Positions 410 through 23,156 of a DNA stretch of 64,000 nt are shown here, one piece after another. The notes below the pieces were generated by a model. The model did no database searches, was not told the origin of the DNA, and saw nothing but the letters and a program-made list of their open reading frames with translations. The DNA is taken from sequence record MT446423.1; one strand, given 5' to 3'. A program made the position numbers and the translations under genes. This stretch comes from Escherichia virus TH58. Each line of letters opens with the position of its first letter. Position 1 is the first letter of the stretch.

Positions 410-859
410 ATGGCCTACTCTGGTAAATGGGTCCCGAAAAATTTAAAAAAATACCGTGGAGACCATACCAAAATAACGTATCGTTCAAACTGGGAAAAAT
501 TCTTTTTCGAATGGTTGGATAAAAATCCGGAAATTATTGCATGGGGTAGTGAAACAGCAGTAATTCCATATTTTTGTAATGCTGAAGGTAAGAAACGTCG
601 ATACTATATGGACGTATGGATGAAAGATGCATCAGGTCAAGAGTTCTTTGTAGAAATAAAACCAAAGAAAGAAACTCAACCGCCTATTAAGCCTGCAAAT
701 CTTACTACCGCAGCAAAGAAACGTTATATGAATGAAATATACACCTGGTCTGTGAACTGCGACAAATGGAAAGCTGCTTCTGCTGTCGCAGAAAAGAGAA
801 ATATAAAATTTCGAGTTCTAACCGAAGACGGACTTAGGAAACTCGGATACAAGGGGTAA
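410..859 (+). CDS. 4: Head completion protein gp4
   Basis: 149 aa, AGGAGG RBS; size and position (53 | 4-2-3-1) as in T4. Confidence 0.75.
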
Positions 860-861
860 TT

Positions 862-1683
862 ATGAGCATATTCCAAATTATATCTGAAGGCGTACAAGCC
901 ACTAAGATTGCTCAGTCTATGAATGAAAGAAAATGGATTGAGATAGGATTAGAGTACAAGAAAGCTAAAGAGAAAGGAATCACTGCAAAAGCATTTGCAG
1001 AATCAAAAGGAATAAAATACTCGTCGTTTACATCTGCAATGTCTAGATATGCATCATCTATTAAGATTGCACAGAAAATTGAAACGCTTGAATCTAAACC
1101 TAAAAATAAACTCAATAAGCAAGAACGTCAACTTCTGATGATAAACTCGTTTCGCAGTTCAATACGAGAAAAGATTAGAAATGAAGGCGCAGCAGTAAAC
1201 AACAAATCATCTAAGTGGTTTGTTGAAACAATTAAGAAAAGTGTAAAAGGTCATAAAGTAGTCAAGCCTATGCCAGGCAAAATTTATACTTACGTGTATG
1301 ATGCTAAACATAAAGATACTCTACCATACTGGGACCGATATCCTTTGATTATTTATTTAGGATTAGGTAAACATAATTTGATGTATGGGTTAAACTTGCA
1401 CTATATCCCACCTAAAGCACGACAACAGTTTCTTGAAGAATTGCTGAAGCAATATGCTAGCACAACTACTATTACTAATAACACAAAGTTGAAGATAGAC
1501 TGGAGCAAGGTGAAAGGATTTCAAGGTGCTGACAAAATGATTAAAGCATACCTGCCAGGCCACATTAGAGGAACAATAACAGAAATCGCTCCTAAAGACT
1601 GGGCTAACATAATCATGTTACCTACTCAGCAATTTATGTCAAAAGGAAAACGTTTCTCTGCGAATACTGTTTGGAAATCTTAA
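862..1683 (+). CDS. 2: DNA end protector protein gp2
   Basis: 273 aa (T4 gp2 274 aa), synteny between gene 4 and gene 3. Confidence 0.75.
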
Positions 1684-1785
1684 TTCTATTCTCTTCCGTT
1701 CTTCTGATATTCTGTTAAACCGGATTAATGGAAGAGACCTAAAACCATTATACTGCATTTTTATTAAAGCGTTTTTGAGGTGCTT

Positions 1786-2370
1786 ATGACTCGTCCAGCG
1801 AGACAGATTTTTAACCAAACAAATATAACAAACTTTGTTGTGGATATCCCGGATAGTACACGAACTTCAGGTTTTGTGCTCAATGCCCAAACGGCTCCAT
1901 TACCTGGTGTGAGAATTCCTGTTGTTGAAACTGTGACGGGCACAATGGGGTTAGGACGTGCAATGCGCGCAGGCACTACATTTGAATATGACCCTTTTAT
2001 TGTACGATTTATAGTTGATGAAGACATGACGTCCTGGATGAACATGTATAAATGGATGCTCAGCACTAATAACTATATAACCGGTCATAATACAGCCCAT
2101 GCTGATGGTCCTGAGTTTGTTACTTTGCACATTTTAAACAACAATAAGACTGAAGTAGTTTTGACGGCGAATTTCTATAAACCATGGATTTCTGATTTGA
2201 GTGAAATTGAATTTAGTTACACCGAAGACTCTGACCCTGCCGTTACGTGCGTAGCAACTATTCACTATGCGTATATGACGATAGAAAAGGATGGTGAAGT
2301 CATTGTATCTCAACAACCACGTCAAGCAGTCGAATCTAAATCCATTTCTAGACACCCTTCCTTGCGTTAA
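1786..2370 (+). CDS. 3: Tail completion / sheath stabilizer gp3 (by synteny)
   Basis: ATG at 1786 preceded by GAGG; track ORF begins at in-frame GTG 1780; position between genes 2 and 1. Confidence 0.55.
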   Translation: MTRPARQIFNQTNITNFVVDIPDSTRTSGFVLNAQTAPLPGVRIPVVETVTGTMGLGRAMRAGTTFEYDPFIVRFIVDEDMTSWMNMYKWMLSTNNYITGHNTAHADGPEFVTLHILNNNKTEVVLTANFYKPWISDLSEIEFSYTEDSDPAVTCVATIHYAYMTIEKDGEVIVSQQPRQAVESKSISRHPSLR

Positions 2371-2423
2371 TCGCTTCTAGCTCCGTATGTTATAATCACT
2401 CATAAATTATATGAGGAAAACCT

Positions 2424-3158
2424 ATGGAGCTAATCTTTTTAAGTGGCATCAAACGTAGCGGTAAAGACACTACTGCTGATTACATCAATTCAAACTTTAA
2501 GTCCGTAAAATACCAATTGGCATATCCGATTAAAGACGCTCTAGCAATAGCCTGGGGACGTAAACATGCTGAAAACCCTGATGTATTCACAGAGTTGAAA
2601 TACGAATACTTTGAAGGTGTTGGATACGACCGTGAAACACCATTAAATCTCAATAAGTTGGATGTTATTGAATTATTGGAAGAAGCGCTAATTTATTTAC
2701 AAAGTCAATATTTACCAATTAATAATGTTAAAGTATTATCATCATTAGAAGGTGGGTATTCATATCTAGATATTAAACCATATGAAGCCCTGCGTGAAGC
2801 TATAAATAATATCAACGACACATGGTCAATCCGCCGTCTTATGCAAGCCCTCGGTACGGATGTTGTCGTTAATTTATTTGACCGTATGTATTGGGTTAAA
2901 CTTTTTGCATTAAACTATATGGATTATATTGGAAGTGATTTCGATTACTATGTTGTAACCGATACACGCCAAGTCCATGAAATGGAAACCGCTAGAGCGA
3001 TGGGTGCTACAGTTATTCATGTGGTTCGCTCTGGTACGGAATCCACCGATAAACATATTACAGAAGCTGGGTTGCCTATTGAAGAAGGCGATTTAGTTAT
3101 TACAAACGACGGCTCTTTAGAAGAGCTTTATTCTAAAATTGAAACAATCTTAAGGTAA
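2424..3158 (+). CDS. 1: Deoxynucleoside monophosphate kinase gp1
   Basis: N-terminal P-loop LIFLSGIKRSGKDTTADYI; 244 aa; T4 gp1-like. Confidence 0.85.
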   Translation: MELIFLSGIKRSGKDTTADYINSNFKSVKYQLAYPIKDALAIAWGRKHAENPDVFTELKYEYFEGVGYDRETPLNLNKLDVIELLEEALIYLQSQYLPINNVKVLSSLEGGYSYLDIKPYEALREAINNINDTWSIRRLMQALGTDVVVNLFDRMYWVKLFALNYMDYIGSDFDYYVVTDTRQVHEMETARAMGATVIHVVRSGTESTDKHITEAGLPIEEGDLVITNDGSLEELYSKIETILR

Positions 3159-3162
3159 TAAA

Positions 3163-3848
<686 letters not shown>

Positions 3849-3862
3849 TTTTCACAAAACAG

Positions 3863-3891
3863 TTTACATAAGGATGATGGTGTGTTACTAT
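3863..3891 (+). promoter_or_regulatory. Early promoter (GTTTAC -35, TACTAT -10) inside inverted repeat AGGATGA/TCATCCT
   Basis: GTTTAC at 3863-3868, 17-nt spacer, TACTAT at 3886-3891; inverted repeat flanks the -10 element. Confidence 0.5.
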
Positions 3892-3926
3892 CATCCTATC
3901 AAATAAACAACCAAATGGAACCTAAA

Positions 3927-4190
3927 ATGAAAACTTTCAACGAATTCATCTCAGAATCGTCTGGTGTGAAAATTAACAAAGCGGTTAATCAGGTTATTGC
4001 TGATATTCTTAATTTGTATAACATTGACTTAACTCCGCATATCACGCTTGGTAACAAACGAAACTTTTTTATATTTGACACATCCGAACTTGATGAAAAC
4101 CAGTTCAATAACATTCAACGTTTTGCGAATGATAAAGGTCTTCGACACGAGCCTGGCGGCTATAAAAAATACGCAATATATTTGAAATAA
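3927..4190 (+). CDS. Internal-protein-like ORF with capsid targeting sequence (IPI position)
   Basis: Starts MKTFNEFISE, matching the T4 IP capsid targeting signature MKTYQEFIAE; sits at the ipI position between 57B and the tRNAs. Confidence 0.55.
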   Translation: MKTFNEFISESSGVKINKAVNQVIADILNLYNIDLTPHITLGNKRNFFIFDTSELDENQFNNIQRFANDKGLRHEPGGYKKYAIYLK

Positions 4191-17967: not shown

Positions 17968-18191
17968 TGGCTAAATTGATTATAGAAGGGTCTGAAGATG
18001 TTTTAAAATGTTTTGCCGCCTGGTTTAGTTGCTCAGGCGAGCAATCATTCACTGAAGCATTTAGAATGGGTGATATTACTGGAAACTATCCGACAACTGA
18101 TATCACTGTACGTGGATATGGTATTAATGAGCCTATCCAATTGGTCGAATATGACCTTGCCACCGATGAGGAAATTCCTTATGTCGATTGA
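17967..18191 (+). CDS. Hypothetical protein
   Basis: 74 aa; overlapping start. Confidence 0.45.
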   Translation: MAKLIIEGSEDVLKCFAAWFSCSGEQSFTEAFRMGDITGNYPTTDITVRGYGINEPIQLVEYDLATDEEIPYVD

Positions 18192-18447
18192 AGATATTAA
18201 AGGTTACAAACCGCTCACCGATGACAAAATCGGCAAAGTGAACGCTATTAAAGATGCAGAAGTCCGTCTTGGATTGATGTTTGATGCTCTGATTGAAGAA
18301 GCATATATCTTGAAAGAAAATGAATCAGAGCAACAAACCAAAGAAGATATGGATGCAGTGCAGGCTCTTAAGTATGCTAAGCAACATCTAAAAGAAGCCA
18401 GTATGTGGGCATGTCGTGCAGTATTTCGACCTGAGGAAAAATACTAA
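18181..18447 (+). CDS. Hypothetical protein
   Basis: ATG 18181 after GAGGAA; in frame with track ORF 18013..18447. Confidence 0.4.
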   Translation: MSIEDIKGYKPLTDDKIGKVNAIKDAEVRLGLMFDALIEEAYILKENESEQQTKEDMDAVQALKYAKQHLKEASMWACRAVFRPEEKY

Positions 18448-18662
18448 TGGCTTCTACTATTACTGGGTTATTGGACTTTCAAGAAAAGGTCAACAAAATT
18501 TGTAGTGAATACTTAAAGTATCTTGAAGAAGACCTTGAAGATTGTAAGGAAGAAGGCGAAGAAGACTATGCTGACCAGCGTCGTCGCCAAATCGAAGAGA
18601 TGAGGCATTTCACCGATATAGTATCTAAAGAATCTTGGGCTTTAACTCCATTTTATCAATAA
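18447..18662 (+). CDS. Hypothetical acidic protein
   Basis: 71 aa; ATGA-type overlap. Confidence 0.45.
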   Translation: MASTITGLLDFQEKVNKICSEYLKYLEEDLEDCKEEGEEDYADQRRRQIEEMRHFTDIVSKESWALTPFYQ

Positions 18663-18666
18663 AGTA

Positions 18667-18695
18667 GTTTACTTCTCCTCTAGTTGTGTTACTAT
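18667..18695 (+). promoter_or_regulatory. Early promoter inside 10-bp inverted repeat CCTCTAGTTG/CAACTAGAGG
   Basis: GTTTAC 18667-18672, TACTAT 18690-18695; palindrome flanks the -10. Confidence 0.5.
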
Positions 18696-18723
18696 AGAAC
18701 TGTCAACTAGAGGAGAAATCAAA

Positions 18724-19182
18724 ATGACTATCAATTCAGACGTTTTTATCCGCCGTAATAAACTCCGTCGAATCTTTGAAACGGAGTTCCGCAAAATAAA
18801 TGCCGGTATAAAAGATGCTGCAAAGTCTCTTGGACTACCAGGCTTTCATATCAAGTATTCTCAACATCTCTTAGATCGTGCCATCCAGAGAGAAATAGAT
18901 GAGAACTACGTTTTTGAATTATTTCATAAAGTAAAAAATCATGTTAAAGAAGTTGCAGAATTTTTATCAATGCCGGCACGTCCGGATGTTGATGAAGATT
19001 TTGACGAAGGTGTCGAATATCGCCCAGGCCGTTTAGAAATAACTGATGGAAATCTTTGGTTAGGACTTACAGTTTGTCGCGAAAATCCGGCATTCAAAAT
19101 GAAGACTCTTCAATGCAGAATGGCTATTATTAACAGTAAACGATTACCAGGAAAAGCTTCTAAAGCAGTGATTAAAATCTAG
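18724..19182 (+). CDS. regB: RegB endoribonuclease
   Basis: MTINSDVFIRRNKLRR...SQHLLDRAIQREIDE...LPGKASKAVIK matches T4 RegB; 152 aa. Confidence 0.9.
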   Translation: MTINSDVFIRRNKLRRIFETEFRKINAGIKDAAKSLGLPGFHIKYSQHLLDRAIQREIDENYVFELFHKVKNHVKEVAEFLSMPARPDVDEDFDEGVEYRPGRLEITDGNLWLGLTVCRENPAFKMKTLQCRMAIINSKRLPGKASKAVIKI

Positions 19183-19190
19183 AGGTAAAC

Positions 19191-19733
19191 ATGAGAAAAG
19201 CACTACTCGCTGGTCTATTTGCTCTTTCATTATCAGCACATAGCTCCGAGCATACTTTTAGTAATGTCCAACTCGATAACTTGAATTATGCTTATCAGTT
19301 TGGGGAACAGTTTTCTAAGGACGGAAAATTTAAAACGCATGAAAATATGCATAAGAAAGGACTTGGATACATAATGGCCGCAATACTATGGCAGGAATCA
19401 TCTGCCGGTATTAATCTTAAAGATAAGAAAGGTCACCATGCGTATGGAATGTTCCAAAATTATCTACCAACAATGAGGGCAAGAATTAACCAGCTTGGTT
19501 ATAATATGTCTGATGCCCAAATTAAGAAAATGCTATCTAAGCGGTCTAATTCAGCCAGATGGGCTTATATCGAATTTTCTTATTGGTTAAATATACATAA
19601 CGGGGATATAAGAAAAGCTATATCCTCATATAATGCGGGATGGAAGACAAGTGCTGGAAGTAAATATGCTTCTGAAGTCCTAGAAAAGGCTAATTACCTT
19701 AAATCAAATAAACTACTGGAAATAAAAGAATGA
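19191..19733 (+). CDS. Secreted lytic transglycosylase-like protein (SLT domain)
   Basis: N-terminal signal peptide; SLT-like motifs WQESS, AYGMFQ, SYNAGW. Confidence 0.55.
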   Translation: MRKALLAGLFALSLSAHSSEHTFSNVQLDNLNYAYQFGEQFSKDGKFKTHENMHKKGLGYIMAAILWQESSAGINLKDKKGHHAYGMFQNYLPTMRARINQLGYNMSDAQIKKMLSKRSNSARWAYIEFSYWLNIHNGDIRKAISSYNAGWKTSAGSKYASEVLEKANYLKSNKLLEIKE

Positions 19734-20077
19734 CCAAAATGTTGGCTTTAATAGTTGGCTTGGTTTCATTTAACGCTCTTGCTAATACTACATATACTGA
19801 TGTAACGGAGTATACAAACAGAACGGCGTCTGATTATTGTGGTCAAAGTCAAGAGTGTAAAGTAGATTTTTCACAAAAATTGTTATATGCGTATAAAGAC
19901 GGAGAAAAAGATGGGGCGTCTAGTAGGTTCAAGGCGTCTACCTTAATTAAAAGATACTATAAAAAATGGCAAATATTAGAATGCTCGGTGGCGGAACCTA
20001 AAGATAAGGCAGCATGCAATTCTATGGTGGACCGTCTAGTTGACTCTTATACTAGAGGACTTGCAGCAAGTGATTAA
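19730..20077 (+). CDS. Secreted protein, function unknown
   Basis: Signal peptide MTKMLALIVGLVSFNALA; 115 aa. Confidence 0.5.
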   Translation: MTKMLALIVGLVSFNALANTTYTDVTEYTNRTASDYCGQSQECKVDFSQKLLYAYKDGEKDGASSRFKASTLIKRYYKKWQILECSVAEPKDKAACNSMVDRLVDSYTRGLAASD

Positions 20078-20537
20078 AAACTATATCAAGGGCGATATTG
20101 TCGCCCTGTTTTCTAAAGGTAATAATATTGCTCATGGGTGTAATTGTTTTCATACAATGGGCGCCGGCGTGGCAGGACAATTAGCAAAGGCTTATCCAAA
20201 AATTTTAGAAGCCGATAAACTTCAAACCGAATTCGGAGACGAGTCTAAACTCGGGACTTATTCGGTTTATGAAAAATATTTTAAGACACATAAAGCTTAT
20301 TGCTTTAATCTTTATACACAGTTTGAGCCGGGACCTAATTTTGAGTACTCTGCTTTAATGAATTGTATAATAGAATTAAATGAATTCGGAAAGAATAAGA
20401 TAACAAAGCCTGTAATTTATATGCCAAGAATTGGTGCAGGTATCGGTGGTGGAAACTGGGATGTCATCGAAGAGATTTTAGATACGTATTCCACTAAACT
20501 AGAAATTGTGATTGTTGATTGGGAACCATTATTATGA
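20070..20537 (+). CDS. Macro-domain protein (ADP-ribose binding or processing)
   Basis: Motifs NIAHGCNCFHTMGAGVAGQLAKAYP and MPRIGAGIGGGNW resemble macrodomain glycine-rich loops; start uncertain (GTG 20070 or TTG 20040). Confidence 0.5.
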   Translation: MIKNYIKGDIVALFSKGNNIAHGCNCFHTMGAGVAGQLAKAYPKILEADKLQTEFGDESKLGTYSVYEKYFKTHKAYCFNLYTQFEPGPNFEYSALMNCIIELNEFGKNKITKPVIYMPRIGAGIGGGNWDVIEEILDTYSTKLEIVIVDWEPLL

Positions 20538-20746
20538 ATATACATTATCCGCATCCATATGACCCAAAGAATAAGGCAGTAATTATTCGACAATGGGAAC
20601 GCATTTGTCGTACCAAATGTCCAATTAATAGTCCACATGATGTAGATAAAGACTACATCGGAACATTCGTTGAATATACCTTTATTGATAAGAAAGGTCG
20701 TAAACAGCATGTAGAAGAATACTGCTTAAAGGTGACATGGTTATGA
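20534..20746 (+). CDS. Hypothetical protein
   Basis: ATG 20534; 70 aa. Confidence 0.4.
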   Translation: MNIHYPHPYDPKNKAVIIRQWERICRTKCPINSPHDVDKDYIGTFVEYTFIDKKGRKQHVEEYCLKVTWL

Positions 20747-20928
20747 GTTTAAGCAAAGAACAAAAAGACAAACTCTTTTCTCTTATCCACGAAGTTATGG
20801 ATAAAAACAGTGAATTGGAAAAAGTTTGTGATGAATGCGGTCCTTTTAATGCAAACGAGTACGAAGAACTTTCTAAAGAATTCGATAATAAAGAACAAGA
20901 ACTTATTAATTATATAAATTCCTTATGA
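20737..20928 (+). CDS. Small acidic protein (tandem paralog A)
   Basis: 63 aa; similar in size and charge to the next ORF. Confidence 0.45.
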   Translation: MVMSLSKEQKDKLFSLIHEVMDKNSELEKVCDECGPFNANEYEELSKEFDNKEQELINYINSL

Positions 20929-21122
20929 TTACTCGCGAACAAAAGAACGAAATATTATTTTTAGTTGGTGAAATTATTAGTTTAGAAAAGGATTTGTCTT
21001 TTGAATTATCTTCTGATTATGGAGATGCCGAAACATATTACGAATTAGTAAAATCTATCGATAAAGCTGAAAATGATTTAGAAACATATTTAGAAAATTT
21101 AACTAAGGACTCTTATGGCTAG
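20925..21122 (+). CDS. Small acidic protein (tandem paralog B)
   Basis: 65 aa; REQK..L...E motif shared with 20737..20928. Confidence 0.45.
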   Translation: MITREQKNEILFLVGEIISLEKDLSFELSSDYGDAETYYELVKSIDKAENDLETYLENLTKDSYG

Positions 21123-21696
21123 TTTAATTTTTACATATGCCGCTATGAATGCTGGTAAGTCTGCTTCATTACTTACTGCCGCACATAACTATAAAGAACG
21201 TGGCATGGGTGTATTAGTTCTTAAACCGGCTATTGATACTCGCGATTCAAAAGGTGAAATAGTCTCTCGTATTGGTATTCGTCAAGACGCCAATATAATT
21301 ACAAAAGACATGGATATCTTTGAATTCTATAAATGGGCTGCAGCACAAAAGGATATTCATTGTGTATTTGTTGACGAAGCTCAATTCTTAACTACTGAAA
21401 AGGTGTATCAACTTAGTCGTATTGTTGACGTATACAATGTGCCGGTAATGGCATATGGACTACGAACAGATTTTAAAGGTAATCTATTTGAAGGTTCTCA
21501 AGCATTAATGGCTATTGCCGATAAGCTTGTTGAACTTAAAGGTGTCTGTCATTGTGGTAAAAAGGCCACAATGGTAGCTAGAGTCACGGAAGACGGACTT
21601 CCAATTACAGATGGCAGTCAAATTGAAATTGGTGATACTGATAGATATGTGTCATTATGCCGGAAGCATTGGAATGATTTGACAGGGTTGTTATAA
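21115..21696 (+). CDS. tk: Thymidine kinase
   Basis: P-loop AMNAGKS, zinc-ribbon CHCGKKA...CRKH; 193 aa. Confidence 0.9.
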   Translation: MASLIFTYAAMNAGKSASLLTAAHNYKERGMGVLVLKPAIDTRDSKGEIVSRIGIRQDANIITKDMDIFEFYKWAAAQKDIHCVFVDEAQFLTTEKVYQLSRIVDVYNVPVMAYGLRTDFKGNLFEGSQALMAIADKLVELKGVCHCGKKATMVARVTEDGLPITDGSQIEIGDTDRYVSLCRKHWNDLTGLL

Positions 21697-21723
21697 ATAC
21701 TAATATCTAACCAAGAGGTATAT

Positions 21724-21936
21724 ATGCAGCAATTAAACGAAAGACAACTTCGTAATCTTACTGTAACCCAATTGGATGAAATCCGAAGAGAATTAGGACA
21801 TTCTATTTCTCATTTAAACGAGGATATCCGTCAAACTGGTTCTAAAGCTGATTATACACGCAAGCGCAAGCTGGAAAAATACCTCACAGATGTTAAGGCC
21901 GTCCAAAGGCGAAAAATAAATACTGGCCAAAATTAA
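21724..21936 (+). CDS. Hypothetical basic protein (rI.-1 position)
   Basis: 70 aa; AAGAGG RBS. Confidence 0.5.
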
Positions 21937-21948
21937 CAGGAGGCCTAT

Positions 21949-22252
21949 ATGGCCTTAAGAGCGATAGCTGTCATGGCGATGCTGGGGTTTTTTTGCAGCA
22001 ACAACTCCTATCGTTGGTACTGCACATATTGACCCATATTTTGATAACTTTATGGAATCAGGGATTAAAAACGTATATACTTTGTTTGAAATTCAAAATG
22101 TCGAGAATTCTGAAAAATTCTATAAGTATATGGCAAAGCATTACAAAAATAGCCCCTGTGATGATGCATTTGAATGTCATGAACAAGGCATAAAAACTGC
22201 CAGACAATTTGCCGAGTTCATGAAAATAAAATTAGAGCCTACATCTATCTAA
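21949..22252 (+). pseudogene. rI: rI lysis-inhibition regulator (antiholin), reading frame broken at a T7 tract
   Basis: AGGAGG-ATG at 21949 encodes signal-anchor MALRAIAVMAMLGFF, then stops at 22030; frame +1 from 21995 continues AATTPIVGTAHIDPYFDNFMESGIK...KIKLEPTSI, which matches T4 RI; frames join if the T run 21988-21994 had 6 rather than 7 T. Confidence 0.6.
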
Positions 22253-22259
22253 TTTACCT

Positions 22260-22287
22260 GCCCCTTCCGAAAGGTTGGGGCTTTTTG
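22260..22287 (+). terminator. Rho-independent terminator
   Basis: GCCCCTTCCGAAAGGTTGGGGC plus T5. Confidence 0.75.
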
Positions 22288-22295
22288 TATAAATA
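22288..22295 (+). promoter_or_regulatory. Late promoter TATAAATA
   Basis: Exact TATAAATA 25 nt upstream of the ATG at 22320. Confidence 0.5.
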
Positions 22296-22319
22296 TCCTT
22301 GTAAACTAAGAGAGGATAT

Positions 22320-22877
22320 ATGAAATTTTTAAAATATGTAAGTTGGGTTGTTCTTGTTCCTATAGATTGGATCGCAGCGATTTTAGCAATTATTCTAGCG
22401 CCATTTGTAGTTCCATTCCATAGTGAAAAAACCGGTAAACTACCTTATGGCTTTAACTGGATGATGACTTACGATAATCCTATCGATGGTGACCGCGGCC
22501 ATGTTGAACGTTGGTCTAAAATACGTAAAATTCCTGTTATAGGTAAATATGCTCAACGCGTAGCTTGGCTATGGCGCAACAAAGCATATAATTTTTCGTA
22601 TCATGTTTTAGGTCGCGAAGCTTCATCAGAATGGCATTATAAAGGCAACGCCGAAACTAAATCTGGATCTCCTGATCCAGCACATCATGGATATCTTTTA
22701 GTTTGGAACGAGTCGGCATGGGGATTATTCGCTGCTATACCTTATCTTAAGGTTGGTGGTATTACATTTTATCTGCGTGTTTACTGTGGTTGGAAACTTA
22801 AGAGTCTTTTGAGTCGTCCTATTCCACGCGCAATGCTTTCATTCCATATCAACCCTTTACGATATTACAAAAACTAA
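22320..22877 (+). CDS. Membrane protein, likely late-expressed (rI.1 position)
   Basis: N-terminal TM helices; 185 aa; flanked by two terminators and preceded by a late promoter. Confidence 0.55.
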   Translation: MKFLKYVSWVVLVPIDWIAAILAIILAPFVVPFHSEKTGKLPYGFNWMMTYDNPIDGDRGHVERWSKIRKIPVIGKYAQRVAWLWRNKAYNFSYHVLGREASSEWHYKGNAETKSGSPDPAHHGYLLVWNESAWGLFAAIPYLKVGGITFYLRVYCGWKLKSLLSRPIPRAMLSFHINPLRYYKN

Positions 22878-22882
22878 TCAAA

Positions 22883-22910
22883 GCCCCTTCCGAAAGGTTG
22901 GGGCTTTTTG
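22883..22910 (+). terminator. Rho-independent terminator
   Basis: Same hairpin GCCCCTTCCGAAAGGTTGGGGC plus T5. Confidence 0.75.
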
Positions 22911-22920
22911 GCATCTATCA

Positions 22921-22950
22921 GTTTACTTCTCCTCAGGTTGTGTTATAGTA
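22921..22950 (+). promoter_or_regulatory. Early promoter GTTTAC / TATAGT
   Basis: GTTTAC 22921-22926, 18-nt spacer, TATAGT 22945-22950. Confidence 0.5.
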
Positions 22951-22976
22951 GTCCTTACTTAATAGAGGAGAATGTT

Positions 22977-23156
22977 ATGACACGTAAAGAAAAAATTTCT
23001 AAGTTAATGTTTTTGATTGAAGAGTATGCTAATGCGGTGTCTGATTGGGAAAATGCTCATGGTTGTGAAGATGGAGACATCGACATTAACAGAGCTATGA
23101 AAAAGATGGCTGAAGCCCACACCGAATTGCAAATGTATGTTAACGAGATTATGTGA
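22977..23156 (+). CDS. Small hypothetical protein
   Basis: ATG 22977 after AGAGGAG; 59 aa. Confidence 0.45.
   Translation: MTRKEKISKLMFLIEEYANAVSDWENAHGCEDGDIDINRAMKKMAEAHTELQMYVNEIM

What the first reader, a model, noticed from the sequence alone, without database searches (positions are those of the whole stretch)
20070..20537. Macro-domain protein in the regB-tk early region
Glycine-rich motifs match macrodomain ADP-ribose-binding loops. Phage macrodomains can reverse ADP-ribosylation (for example of DNA by DarT-like toxins) or degrade ADP-ribose-derived immune signals. The start codon is ambiguous (GTG or TTG).
Basis: partly seen in the sequence, partly recalled or inferred. Interest (0 to 1): 0.55.

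Follow-up and report, generated by a model that had tools for sequence, protein, structure and literature searches.

The report
Known T4 anti-DarT macrodomain gene (tk.4/adfM)

Summary

tk.4 orthologs were matched to the A1pp/macro domain in 2006. A 2025 preprint showed that deleting tk.4 sensitises T4 to DarTG2 and renamed the gene adfM. Hydrolysis of thymidine-linked ADP-ribose on phage DNA is inferred there, not demonstrated.

One point I add: the protein is not a DarG. It lacks the DarT-binding domain, scores 31.9 bits against a cut-off of 250, and carries an invariant Gln84 where DarG has Lys80 and TARG1 has Lys84. That matches Streptomyces SCO6735, a lysine-less thymidine-ADPr DNA hydrolase. 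Its bacterial relatives sit among housekeeping genes, not in DarT operons. PhiKZ "AdfM" belongs to a different, Lys-type lineage.

Verdict: interpretation supported, already known, low interest.

The parts
20070..20537 (+). tk.4/adfM coding sequence: 155-aa stand-alone macrodomain, GTG start, TGA stop
20055..20072 (+). Translation start: GAGGA Shine-Dalgarno (20055-20059) and GTG start (20070-20072). The start overlaps the end of vs by 8 nt (vs stop TAA at 20075-20077).
   Evidence: Sequence. T4 has GAGGA followed by ATG at the homologous position, with an in-frame TAG just before it. Sf24 and IME281 also start with ATG there.
20133..20177 (+). ADP-ribose-binding loop 1 and active-site residues: H22, N25 and M30-G-A-G33-V-A-G36
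   Evidence: H22, N25 and G33 are invariant or nearly so in 67 homologs and in 80 bacterial homologs. However, H22, N25 and M30 lie in the peptide pattern used to find the bacterial loci, so their invariance there is partly built in. N25 aligns with PhiKZ AdfM N23 (N23A reduces activity) and with SCO6735 N27 (N27S is nearly inactive).
20307..20321 (+). N80-L-Y-T-Q84 motif. Gln84 occupies the position of the catalytic Lys80 of DarG and Lys84 of TARG1.
   Evidence: hhalign of the family against DarG macrodomains (probability 98.8%). HMM alignments to TARG1 and BT1257. Q84, N80 and Y82 are invariant in 67 of 67 homologs and 80 of 80 bacterial homologs, and these columns were not part of the search patterns. 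SCO6735 Gln85 is at the equivalent position and Q85A/E abolish activity (PMC9411070).
20424..20459 (+). Phosphate-binding loop 2: P119-R-I-G122-A-G124-I-G-G-G-N-W130. G126 sits where TARG1 has the catalytic Asp125.
   Evidence: Alignments. SCO6735 G126 and G128 correspond to window G122 and G124. The SCO6735 G128E mutant loses activity.
19730..20077 (+). Upstream gene vs (valyl-tRNA synthetase modifier), translationally overlapping tk.4
   Evidence: 66% identity to T4 Vs. T4 annotation.
20534..20746 (+). Downstream gene tk.3. Its ATG overlaps the tk.4 stop (ATGA), implying translational coupling.
   Evidence: 100% aa identity to T4 Tk.3 when read from the ATG at 20534. Sequence.

Best explanation
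The ORF is the ortholog of phage T4 tk.4 (adfM). It encodes an early-expressed, stand-alone macrodomain of the ALC1/TARG1-like class. Its most likely job is to strip the ADP-ribose that the host toxin DarT2 attaches to thymidines in single-stranded phage DNA. That would restore replication and make the phage resistant to the DarTG2 defence system. The chemistry is probably that of the lysine-less bacterial enzyme SCO6735 rather than that of DarG. In that scheme an invariant Gln84, held in place by Asn25, positions the distal ribose, and a water-mediated step releases ADP-ribose. What is shown: domain identity, orthology, synteny and residue equivalences (shown here), and the anti-DarTG2 phenotype of T4 tk.4 (shown in a preprint). 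What is inferred: that this allele has the same phenotype, that the protein hydrolyses dT-ADPr DNA, and that Gln84 is essential.

For: Orthology: 83-84% identity over the full length to T4 Tk.4, with the same gene order regB-vs.1-vs-tk.4-tk.3-tk.2-tk.1-tk-rI.1-rI.

Function of the T4 ortholog: tk.4 was the only significant HIDEN-SEQ hit on a DarTG2 host, and the knockout was sensitised (10.1101/2025.11.20.689424).

Against: No biochemistry exists for Tk.4 or for this allele. The preprint itself says only that enzymatic removal 'seems likely', and it is not peer reviewed. The protein lacks both lysines that SCO6735 uses to hold DNA: K34 corresponds to A32 and K89 to G88. DNA binding would therefore have to be achieved differently, perhaps through the clade-conserved K60. 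Catalytically dead SCO6735, DarG and TARG1 also inhibit DarT by binding, so hydrolysis need not be the whole mechanism. I could not inspect model coordinates, so active-site geometry is inferred from alignments only. Plain MAFFT and BLASTP alignments misplace the Gln region by a few residues; the equivalence rests on profile methods.
Confidence: 0.7

Rival explanations
1. The protein neutralises DarT2 mainly by binding and inhibiting the toxin (stoichiometric inhibition), not by hydrolysing the DNA adduct.
For: Catalytically dead SCO6735 (Q85A), DarG (K80A) and TARG1 (K84A) all inhibit DarT in vitro, and SCO6735 does so most strongly (PMC9411070). The T4 genetic data do not distinguish binding from hydrolysis.
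Against: The protein has no DarG-like C-terminal DarT-binding domain; it is 155 aa. All ADP-ribose-binding and active-site residues are invariant across phage and bacterial homologs that have no DarT partner, which points to selection for catalysis.
Confidence: 0.12
2. It is an ADP-ribose-1''-phosphate phosphatase or another hydrolase of small soluble ADP-ribose derivatives (Poa1p-like), as the database label 'phosphatase' implies. Such an enzyme would clean up by-products of RNA repair or toxic ADPr metabolites.
For: PHROG 335 is labelled 'phosphatase'. Poa1p is among the best sequence and structure hits. [quoted passage not shown]
Against: Poa1p has Ser, not Gln, at the key position (alignment). 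The label is inherited from the 2006-era A1pp domain name, not from an assay. The only phenotype known for the T4 gene is DarTG2 sensitivity.
Confidence: 0.08
3. It erases ADP-ribosylation or RNAylation written by the phage's own transferases (Alt, ModA, ModB) or by other host ADP-ribosyltransferase defences acting on protein or RNA.
For: T4-type phages encode three ADP-ribosyltransferases (established knowledge; mentioned). SCO6735 also acts on ADP-ribosylated protein.
Against: No genetic link to these systems has been reported. tk.4 is dispensable on plain E. coli K-12 and scored only with DarTG2 among the defences reported in the passages I read.
Confidence: 0.06
4. It destroys ADP-ribose-derived immune second messengers, for example Thoeris gcADPR.
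Against: No evidence from sequence, context or literature. The nearest structural relatives are de-ADP-ribosylating enzymes of macromolecules.
Confidence: 0.03

Closest known systems
Phage T4 Tk.4 = AdfM (anti-DarT factor Macrodomain; bioRxiv 10.1101/2025.11.20.689424)
   Same: Same length (155 aa), 83-84% identity, same position between vs and tk.3, same start position, and all conserved residues retained.
   Different: GTG instead of ATG start. An 8-nt rather than 4-nt overlap with vs. G127 where T4 has K127 in loop 2. The phenotype has not been tested for this allele.
Streptomyces coelicolor SCO6735 (PDB 5e3b) and its Bacteroides homolog BT1257 (PDB 2fg1/2afc)
   Different: Only about 23-29% identity. 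The window protein lacks the DNA-positioning lysines K34 and K89, has a shorter loop after the Gln, and has its own conserved D49 and K60. SCO6735 is a chromosomal, DNA-damage-inducible gene, not a phage gene.
DarG antitoxin macrodomain (DarTG2; PDB 5m31, 5m3i, 7omu)
   Different: No C-terminal DarT-binding domain and no adjacent darT. Catalytic Lys80 is replaced by Gln84. The NCBIfam DarG score is 31.9 bits against a cut-off of 250.
PhiKZ gp104, also named AdfM (Cell Rep 2026, PMC13309987)
   Same: A phage-encoded stand-alone macrodomain that counters DarTG2. The conserved Asn (N23 there, N25 here) is present.
   Different: A different lineage. gp104 is a close DarG homolog (E 9e-25 to Mtb DarG) with the FPTK catalytic lysine. 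It shares only a 23-residue local match with the window protein (23.9 bits). Its in vitro activity is demonstrated, whereas that of the Tk.4 type is not.
Human TARG1/OARD1 and yeast Poa1p
   Different: The TARG1 catalytic dyad K84/D125 corresponds to Q84/G126 here. Poa1p has Ser at the Gln position and a long insertion.

Membership tests
Macro domain superfamily (Pfam PF01661) | Profile score above the curated gathering threshold | tested here: met
   28.3 bits against 22, E 1.9e-6, covering profile positions 2-117 of 118.
Macro domain superfamily (Pfam PF01661) | Three-layer alpha/beta/alpha macro fold | tested here: met
Macro domain superfamily (Pfam PF01661) | ADP-ribose-binding loops (GxG after strand 2; glycine-rich phosphate loop) and the conserved Asn | tested here: met
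   N25, G31-A-G33 and G122-A-G124-I-G-G-G are present and conserved.
Macro domain superfamily (Pfam PF01661) | Binds ADP-ribose | not testable with these tools
   Requires ITC, DSF or a crystal structure.
T4 Tk.4/AdfM orthologous group | Full-length high identity and conserved synteny (vs - tk.4 - tk.3) | tested here: met
   83-84% identity over 155 of 155 aa. The neighbouring genes match T4 one for one.
T4 Tk.4/AdfM orthologous group | Required for plating on DarTG2-expressing hosts | not testable with these tools
   Shown only for T4 itself, in a preprint.
DarG antitoxin (NCBIfam NF048014; DarTG2) | Equivalog score at or above 250 bits, with the two-domain architecture (macro plus C-terminal DarT-binding domain, about 340 aa) | tested here: not met
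   31.9 bits, matching only profile positions 4-146 of 338. The protein is 155 aa. PADLOC DarG gives 33.2 bits over positions 4-145 of 329.
DarG antitoxin (NCBIfam NF048014; DarTG2) | Catalytic lysine (Taq DarG K80) | tested here: not met
   An invariant Gln84 is at that column.
DarG antitoxin (NCBIfam NF048014; DarTG2) | Encoded next to darT | tested here: not met
   The flanking genes are vs and tk.3. In 80 bacterial homolog loci there was no DarT2 by tblastn, and no DarT family in the neighbour Pfam census, of which only the top 25 families are shown.
SCO6735-type (lysine-less, Gln-type) ALC1-like macrodomain hydrolases | Gln at the DarG-K80/TARG1-K84 position, supported by the conserved Asn (SCO6735 Q85 and N27) | tested here: met
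   Q84 and N25.
SCO6735-type (lysine-less, Gln-type) ALC1-like macrodomain hydrolases | DNA-positioning lysines K34 and K89 | tested here: not met
   A32 and G88 are at those positions, from the window-SCO6735 BLASTP alignment for K34/A32 and, for K89/G88, from the profile alignment to BT1257 combined with the BT1257-SCO6735 alignment.
SCO6735-type (lysine-less, Gln-type) ALC1-like macrodomain hydrolases | Hydrolyses thymidine-linked ADP-ribose on ssDNA | not testable with these tools
   A biochemical assay is needed.
Poa1p-type ADP-ribose-1''-phosphate phosphatase | Close homology to Poa1p, including its mutagenised residues (PDB mutants H23A, S30A) | tested here: inconclusive
   The His is conserved (H22), but S30 corresponds to M30 and the Gln position is Ser in Poa1p. 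Sequence E is 1e-8 over the N-terminal half only. Activity was not tested.

The most novel reading that the evidence does not exclude
'AdfM' may be polyphyletic. The T-even Tk.4 type may be a lysine-less, Gln-dependent (SCO6735-like) macrodomain captured from housekeeping bacterial DNA-ADP-ribose repair genes, not from a DarG antitoxin. The PhiKZ type is a DarG-derived Lys enzyme. On this reading, phages recruited two mechanistically different erasers against the same toxin. The Tk.4 type, which lacks SCO6735's DNA-binding lysines, might then have a different or broader substrate range.
Probability: 0.5. Interest if true: 0.3.

Novelty: already known. Interest (0 to 1): 0.15.

Why it matters
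DarTG systems stop phages by ADP-ribosylating their DNA, and erasers such as this one explain why T-even phages resist them. For this window the value is confirmatory. The gene can be annotated confidently as tk.4/adfM with a GTG start. The one point beyond the literature I read is that the T-even enzyme resembles the lysine-less SCO6735 rather than DarG. That tells experimenters which residues to mutate (Q84 and N25, not a lysine). It also warns against treating T4 AdfM and PhiKZ AdfM as one family.

Tried and rejected
1. The TTG at 20040 as the start was rejected. T4 has an in-frame stop at that place, and homologs start at the position of the GTG.

2. Plain MAFFT of seven macrodomains and pairwise BLASTP against SCO6735 shift the Gln region by one to five residues. 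I relied instead on hhalign and HMM alignments and on the close BT1257-SCO6735 alignment.

3. A half-length PDB query meant to expose the SCO6735 Gln region aligned only the C-terminal loop.

4. A literature search for the Poa1p structure paper found nothing useful.

5. Membership in DarG was rejected.

6. I looked for DarT next to 80 bacterial homologs. tblastn with P. aeruginosa DarT2 gave only noise (E 0.78 or worse). A Pfam census of 136 flanking ORFs showed heterogeneous, largely housekeeping-type neighbours such as semialdehyde dehydrogenase, isoleucyl-tRNA ligase and ABC transporters, and an NCBIfam scan identified rpoC and ileS directly upstream in four loci. The limits are that a single DarT query was used and only the 25 commonest families are reported.

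7. I checked whether the terminator-like hairpin inside the 5' end of the gene is under nucleotide-level selection. It is identical in T4, Sf24 and IME281, but the run of identical codons is only marginally unusual (about 0.03-0.06) and it is absent from more distant homologs. This was left unresolved.

8. I could not read model coordinates, so no active-site distances were measured.

Full report
**The observation**

The window carries an ORF on the + strand that ends at the TGA at 20535-20537. Read from the GTG at 20070 it encodes 155 aa.

- Pfam Macro (PF01661) matches over almost the whole profile at 28.3 bits, above the gathering score of 22.
- PHROG 335 matches at E 4.7e-67.
- An AlphaFold2 model built on 67 homologs has mean pLDDT 95.6 and pTM 0.91.

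**Start codon**

T4, Sf24 and IME281 begin the homologous gene with ATG at exactly the position of the window's GTG. In T4 the codon just upstream in frame is TAG. A GAGGA lies 10 nt upstream at 20055-20059. The GTG at 20070 is therefore the start, and the TTG at 20040 is not. The gene overlaps the end of vs by 8 nt. Its stop overlaps the ATG of tk.3 (ATGA), which is typical translational coupling.

**Identity**

Over 18000-23000 the window is 97.6% identical in DNA to Tequatrovirus phages. Each ORF from 18724 to 22252 matches a T4 protein, in the T4 order regB, vs.1, vs, tk.4, tk.3, tk.2, tk.1, tk, rI.1, rI. The macrodomain ORF is 83-84% identical over its full length to T4 Tk.4.

Relatives at E of 1e-5 or better occur in 2,799 of 50,697 phage records. 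Many of those records already label the gene 'macro domain protein' or 'phosphatase'.

**What is already known**

- tk.4 orthologs were matched to the A1pp (macro) domain in 2006 (PMC1524935).
- A 2025 preprint (10.1101/2025.11.20.689424) found tk.4 as the single significant transposon-sequencing hit when T4 was grown on a DarTG2 host.
- The same preprint showed that a clean deletion sensitises T4 and renamed the gene adfM. It proposes, without an assay, that the protein removes ADP-ribose from DNA.
- A 2026 paper gave the same name, AdfM, to PhiKZ gp104 and showed in vitro removal of DarT2-made thymidine-ADP-ribose, which was reduced by N23A (PMC13309987).

**Which kind of macrodomain**

- It is not a DarG. 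The NCBIfam equivalog scores 31.9 bits against a cut-off of 250 and covers only the macro half. There is no C-terminal DarT-binding domain and no darT neighbour.
- Profile-profile alignment to DarG macrodomains (probability 98.8%) and HMM alignment to TARG1 place Gln84 at the position of the catalytic DarG K80 and TARG1 K84.
- TARG1 D125 corresponds to G126 in the window protein.
- Gln84, together with N80 and Y82, is invariant in 67 mostly phage homologs and in 80 of 80 bacterial homologs. These columns were not used to find the bacterial loci.

**The SCO6735 parallel**

This is the arrangement described for Streptomyces SCO6735. That enzyme lacks the lysine and has Gln85 at the equivalent position. 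It is inactivated by Q85A/E and nearly so by N27S. It hydrolyses thymidine-linked ADP-ribose on DNA and protects cells from DarT. The proposed mechanism is water-mediated, with the Gln positioning the distal ribose (PMC9411070).

BT1257, my best hit, is a close SCO6735 homolog (E 1e-50). The window protein keeps the counterparts of H24, N27, Q85, G126 and G128. It lacks the DNA-positioning K34 and K89, which correspond to A32 and G88. It has clade-specific conserved D49 and K60.

By contrast, PhiKZ AdfM is a close DarG relative (E 9e-25) with the FPTK lysine. It shares only a 23-residue local match with the window protein. The two 'AdfM' proteins are different lineages.

**Origin**

A scan of species-representative bacterial genomes found 364 loci encoding relatives. 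The best 80 are 35-45% identical.

- All 80 encode stand-alone proteins of about 150 aa.
- None has a DarT2 homolog within 4 kb by tblastn.
- Their immediate neighbours are heterogeneous and largely housekeeping-type, including semialdehyde dehydrogenase, ABC transporters, ileS and rpoC.

The clade therefore looks like a chromosomal housekeeping eraser rather than a toxin-antitoxin component. The caveats are that a single DarT query was used and that the census shows only the commonest families.

**Mechanism and confidence**

The best-supported explanation is that this early gene product removes DarT2-written ADP-ribose from thymidines in phage ssDNA using Gln84/Asn25-dependent chemistry, giving resistance to DarTG2. 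My confidence is 0.7.

- Shown here: domain, fold, orthology, synteny and residue equivalences.
- Shown elsewhere: the T4 phenotype (preprint), and the SCO6735 and PhiKZ biochemistry.
- Inferred: the activity of this protein and the role of Gln84.

The rivals are inhibition of DarT2 by binding (0.12), small-molecule ADPr or Appr-1''-p processing (0.08), erasing marks written by Alt/ModA/ModB or by other transferases (0.06), and degradation of immune signals (0.03).

**Verdict**

The residual point of interest is modest: the T-even enzyme is SCO6735-like rather than DarG-like, so 'AdfM' covers two independent recruitments.

- Interest: 0.15
- Novelty: already known

Noticed in passing
window 21949-22252 (rI); T-run at 21988-21994: The lysis-inhibition gene rI appears frameshifted. 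A run of 7 T sits where an intact reading frame, as in phage ESh15, needs 6. The gene is split into MALRAIAVMAMLGFF... (N-terminal part) and ...AATTPIVGTAHIDPYFDNFMESGIK... in the next frame. The closest relatives span 317 nt where the window spans 318, and several of them annotate an intact rI (WFbE185 also spans 318 nt and is labelled 'hypothetical protein'). This is either a genuine rapid-lysis (r) mutation or a homopolymer sequencing error.
   Followed up: partly
window 20089-20107 (+), inside the first 40 nt of tk.4: There is a terminator-like hairpin, AGGGCGAT-ATT-GTCGCCCT (-13 kcal/mol), followed by a U-rich tract. It is identical in T4, Sf24 and IME281 although the proteins are only about 58% identical. 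It is absent from the Klebsiella, Erwinia, Acinetobacter and RB43 homologs. The run of identical codons is only marginally unusual (about 0.03-0.06), so the function (attenuator, RNA-stability element or chance) is open.
   Followed up: partly
window 19730-21122 compared with T4 (L001): Conservation relative to T4 is strongly mosaic. tk.3 is 100% identical, tk.1 97% and tk.2 93% at the protein level. The adjacent vs is 66%, regB 77%, tk 82% and rI.1 64%. This suggests a recent recombinational exchange of the tk.3-tk.1 block.
   Followed up: no
L010, L026, L042 (about 640-3960) and L013 (8-3853): In Hyphomicrobiaceae the bacterial homolog of this macrodomain lies directly downstream of isoleucyl-tRNA synthetase (ileS). 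In Ruegeria it lies directly downstream of rpoC. These are core-gene neighbourhoods rather than defence islands. The phage gene also follows a tRNA-synthetase-related gene (vs), which is probably coincidence.
   Followed up: partly
Literature (PMC13309987 versus bioRxiv 10.1101/2025.11.20.689424): Two unrelated macrodomain lineages, PhiKZ gp104 (DarG-like, Lys-type) and T4 Tk.4 (SCO6735-like, Gln-type), were independently given the same name, AdfM. This could mislead annotation transfer.
   Followed up: yes
window 20519-20746: The mechanical ORF list starts tk.3 at the TTG at 20519. Homology to T4 Tk.3 (100% over 70 aa) shows the real start is the ATG at 20534, which overlaps the tk.4 stop.
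   Followed up: yes
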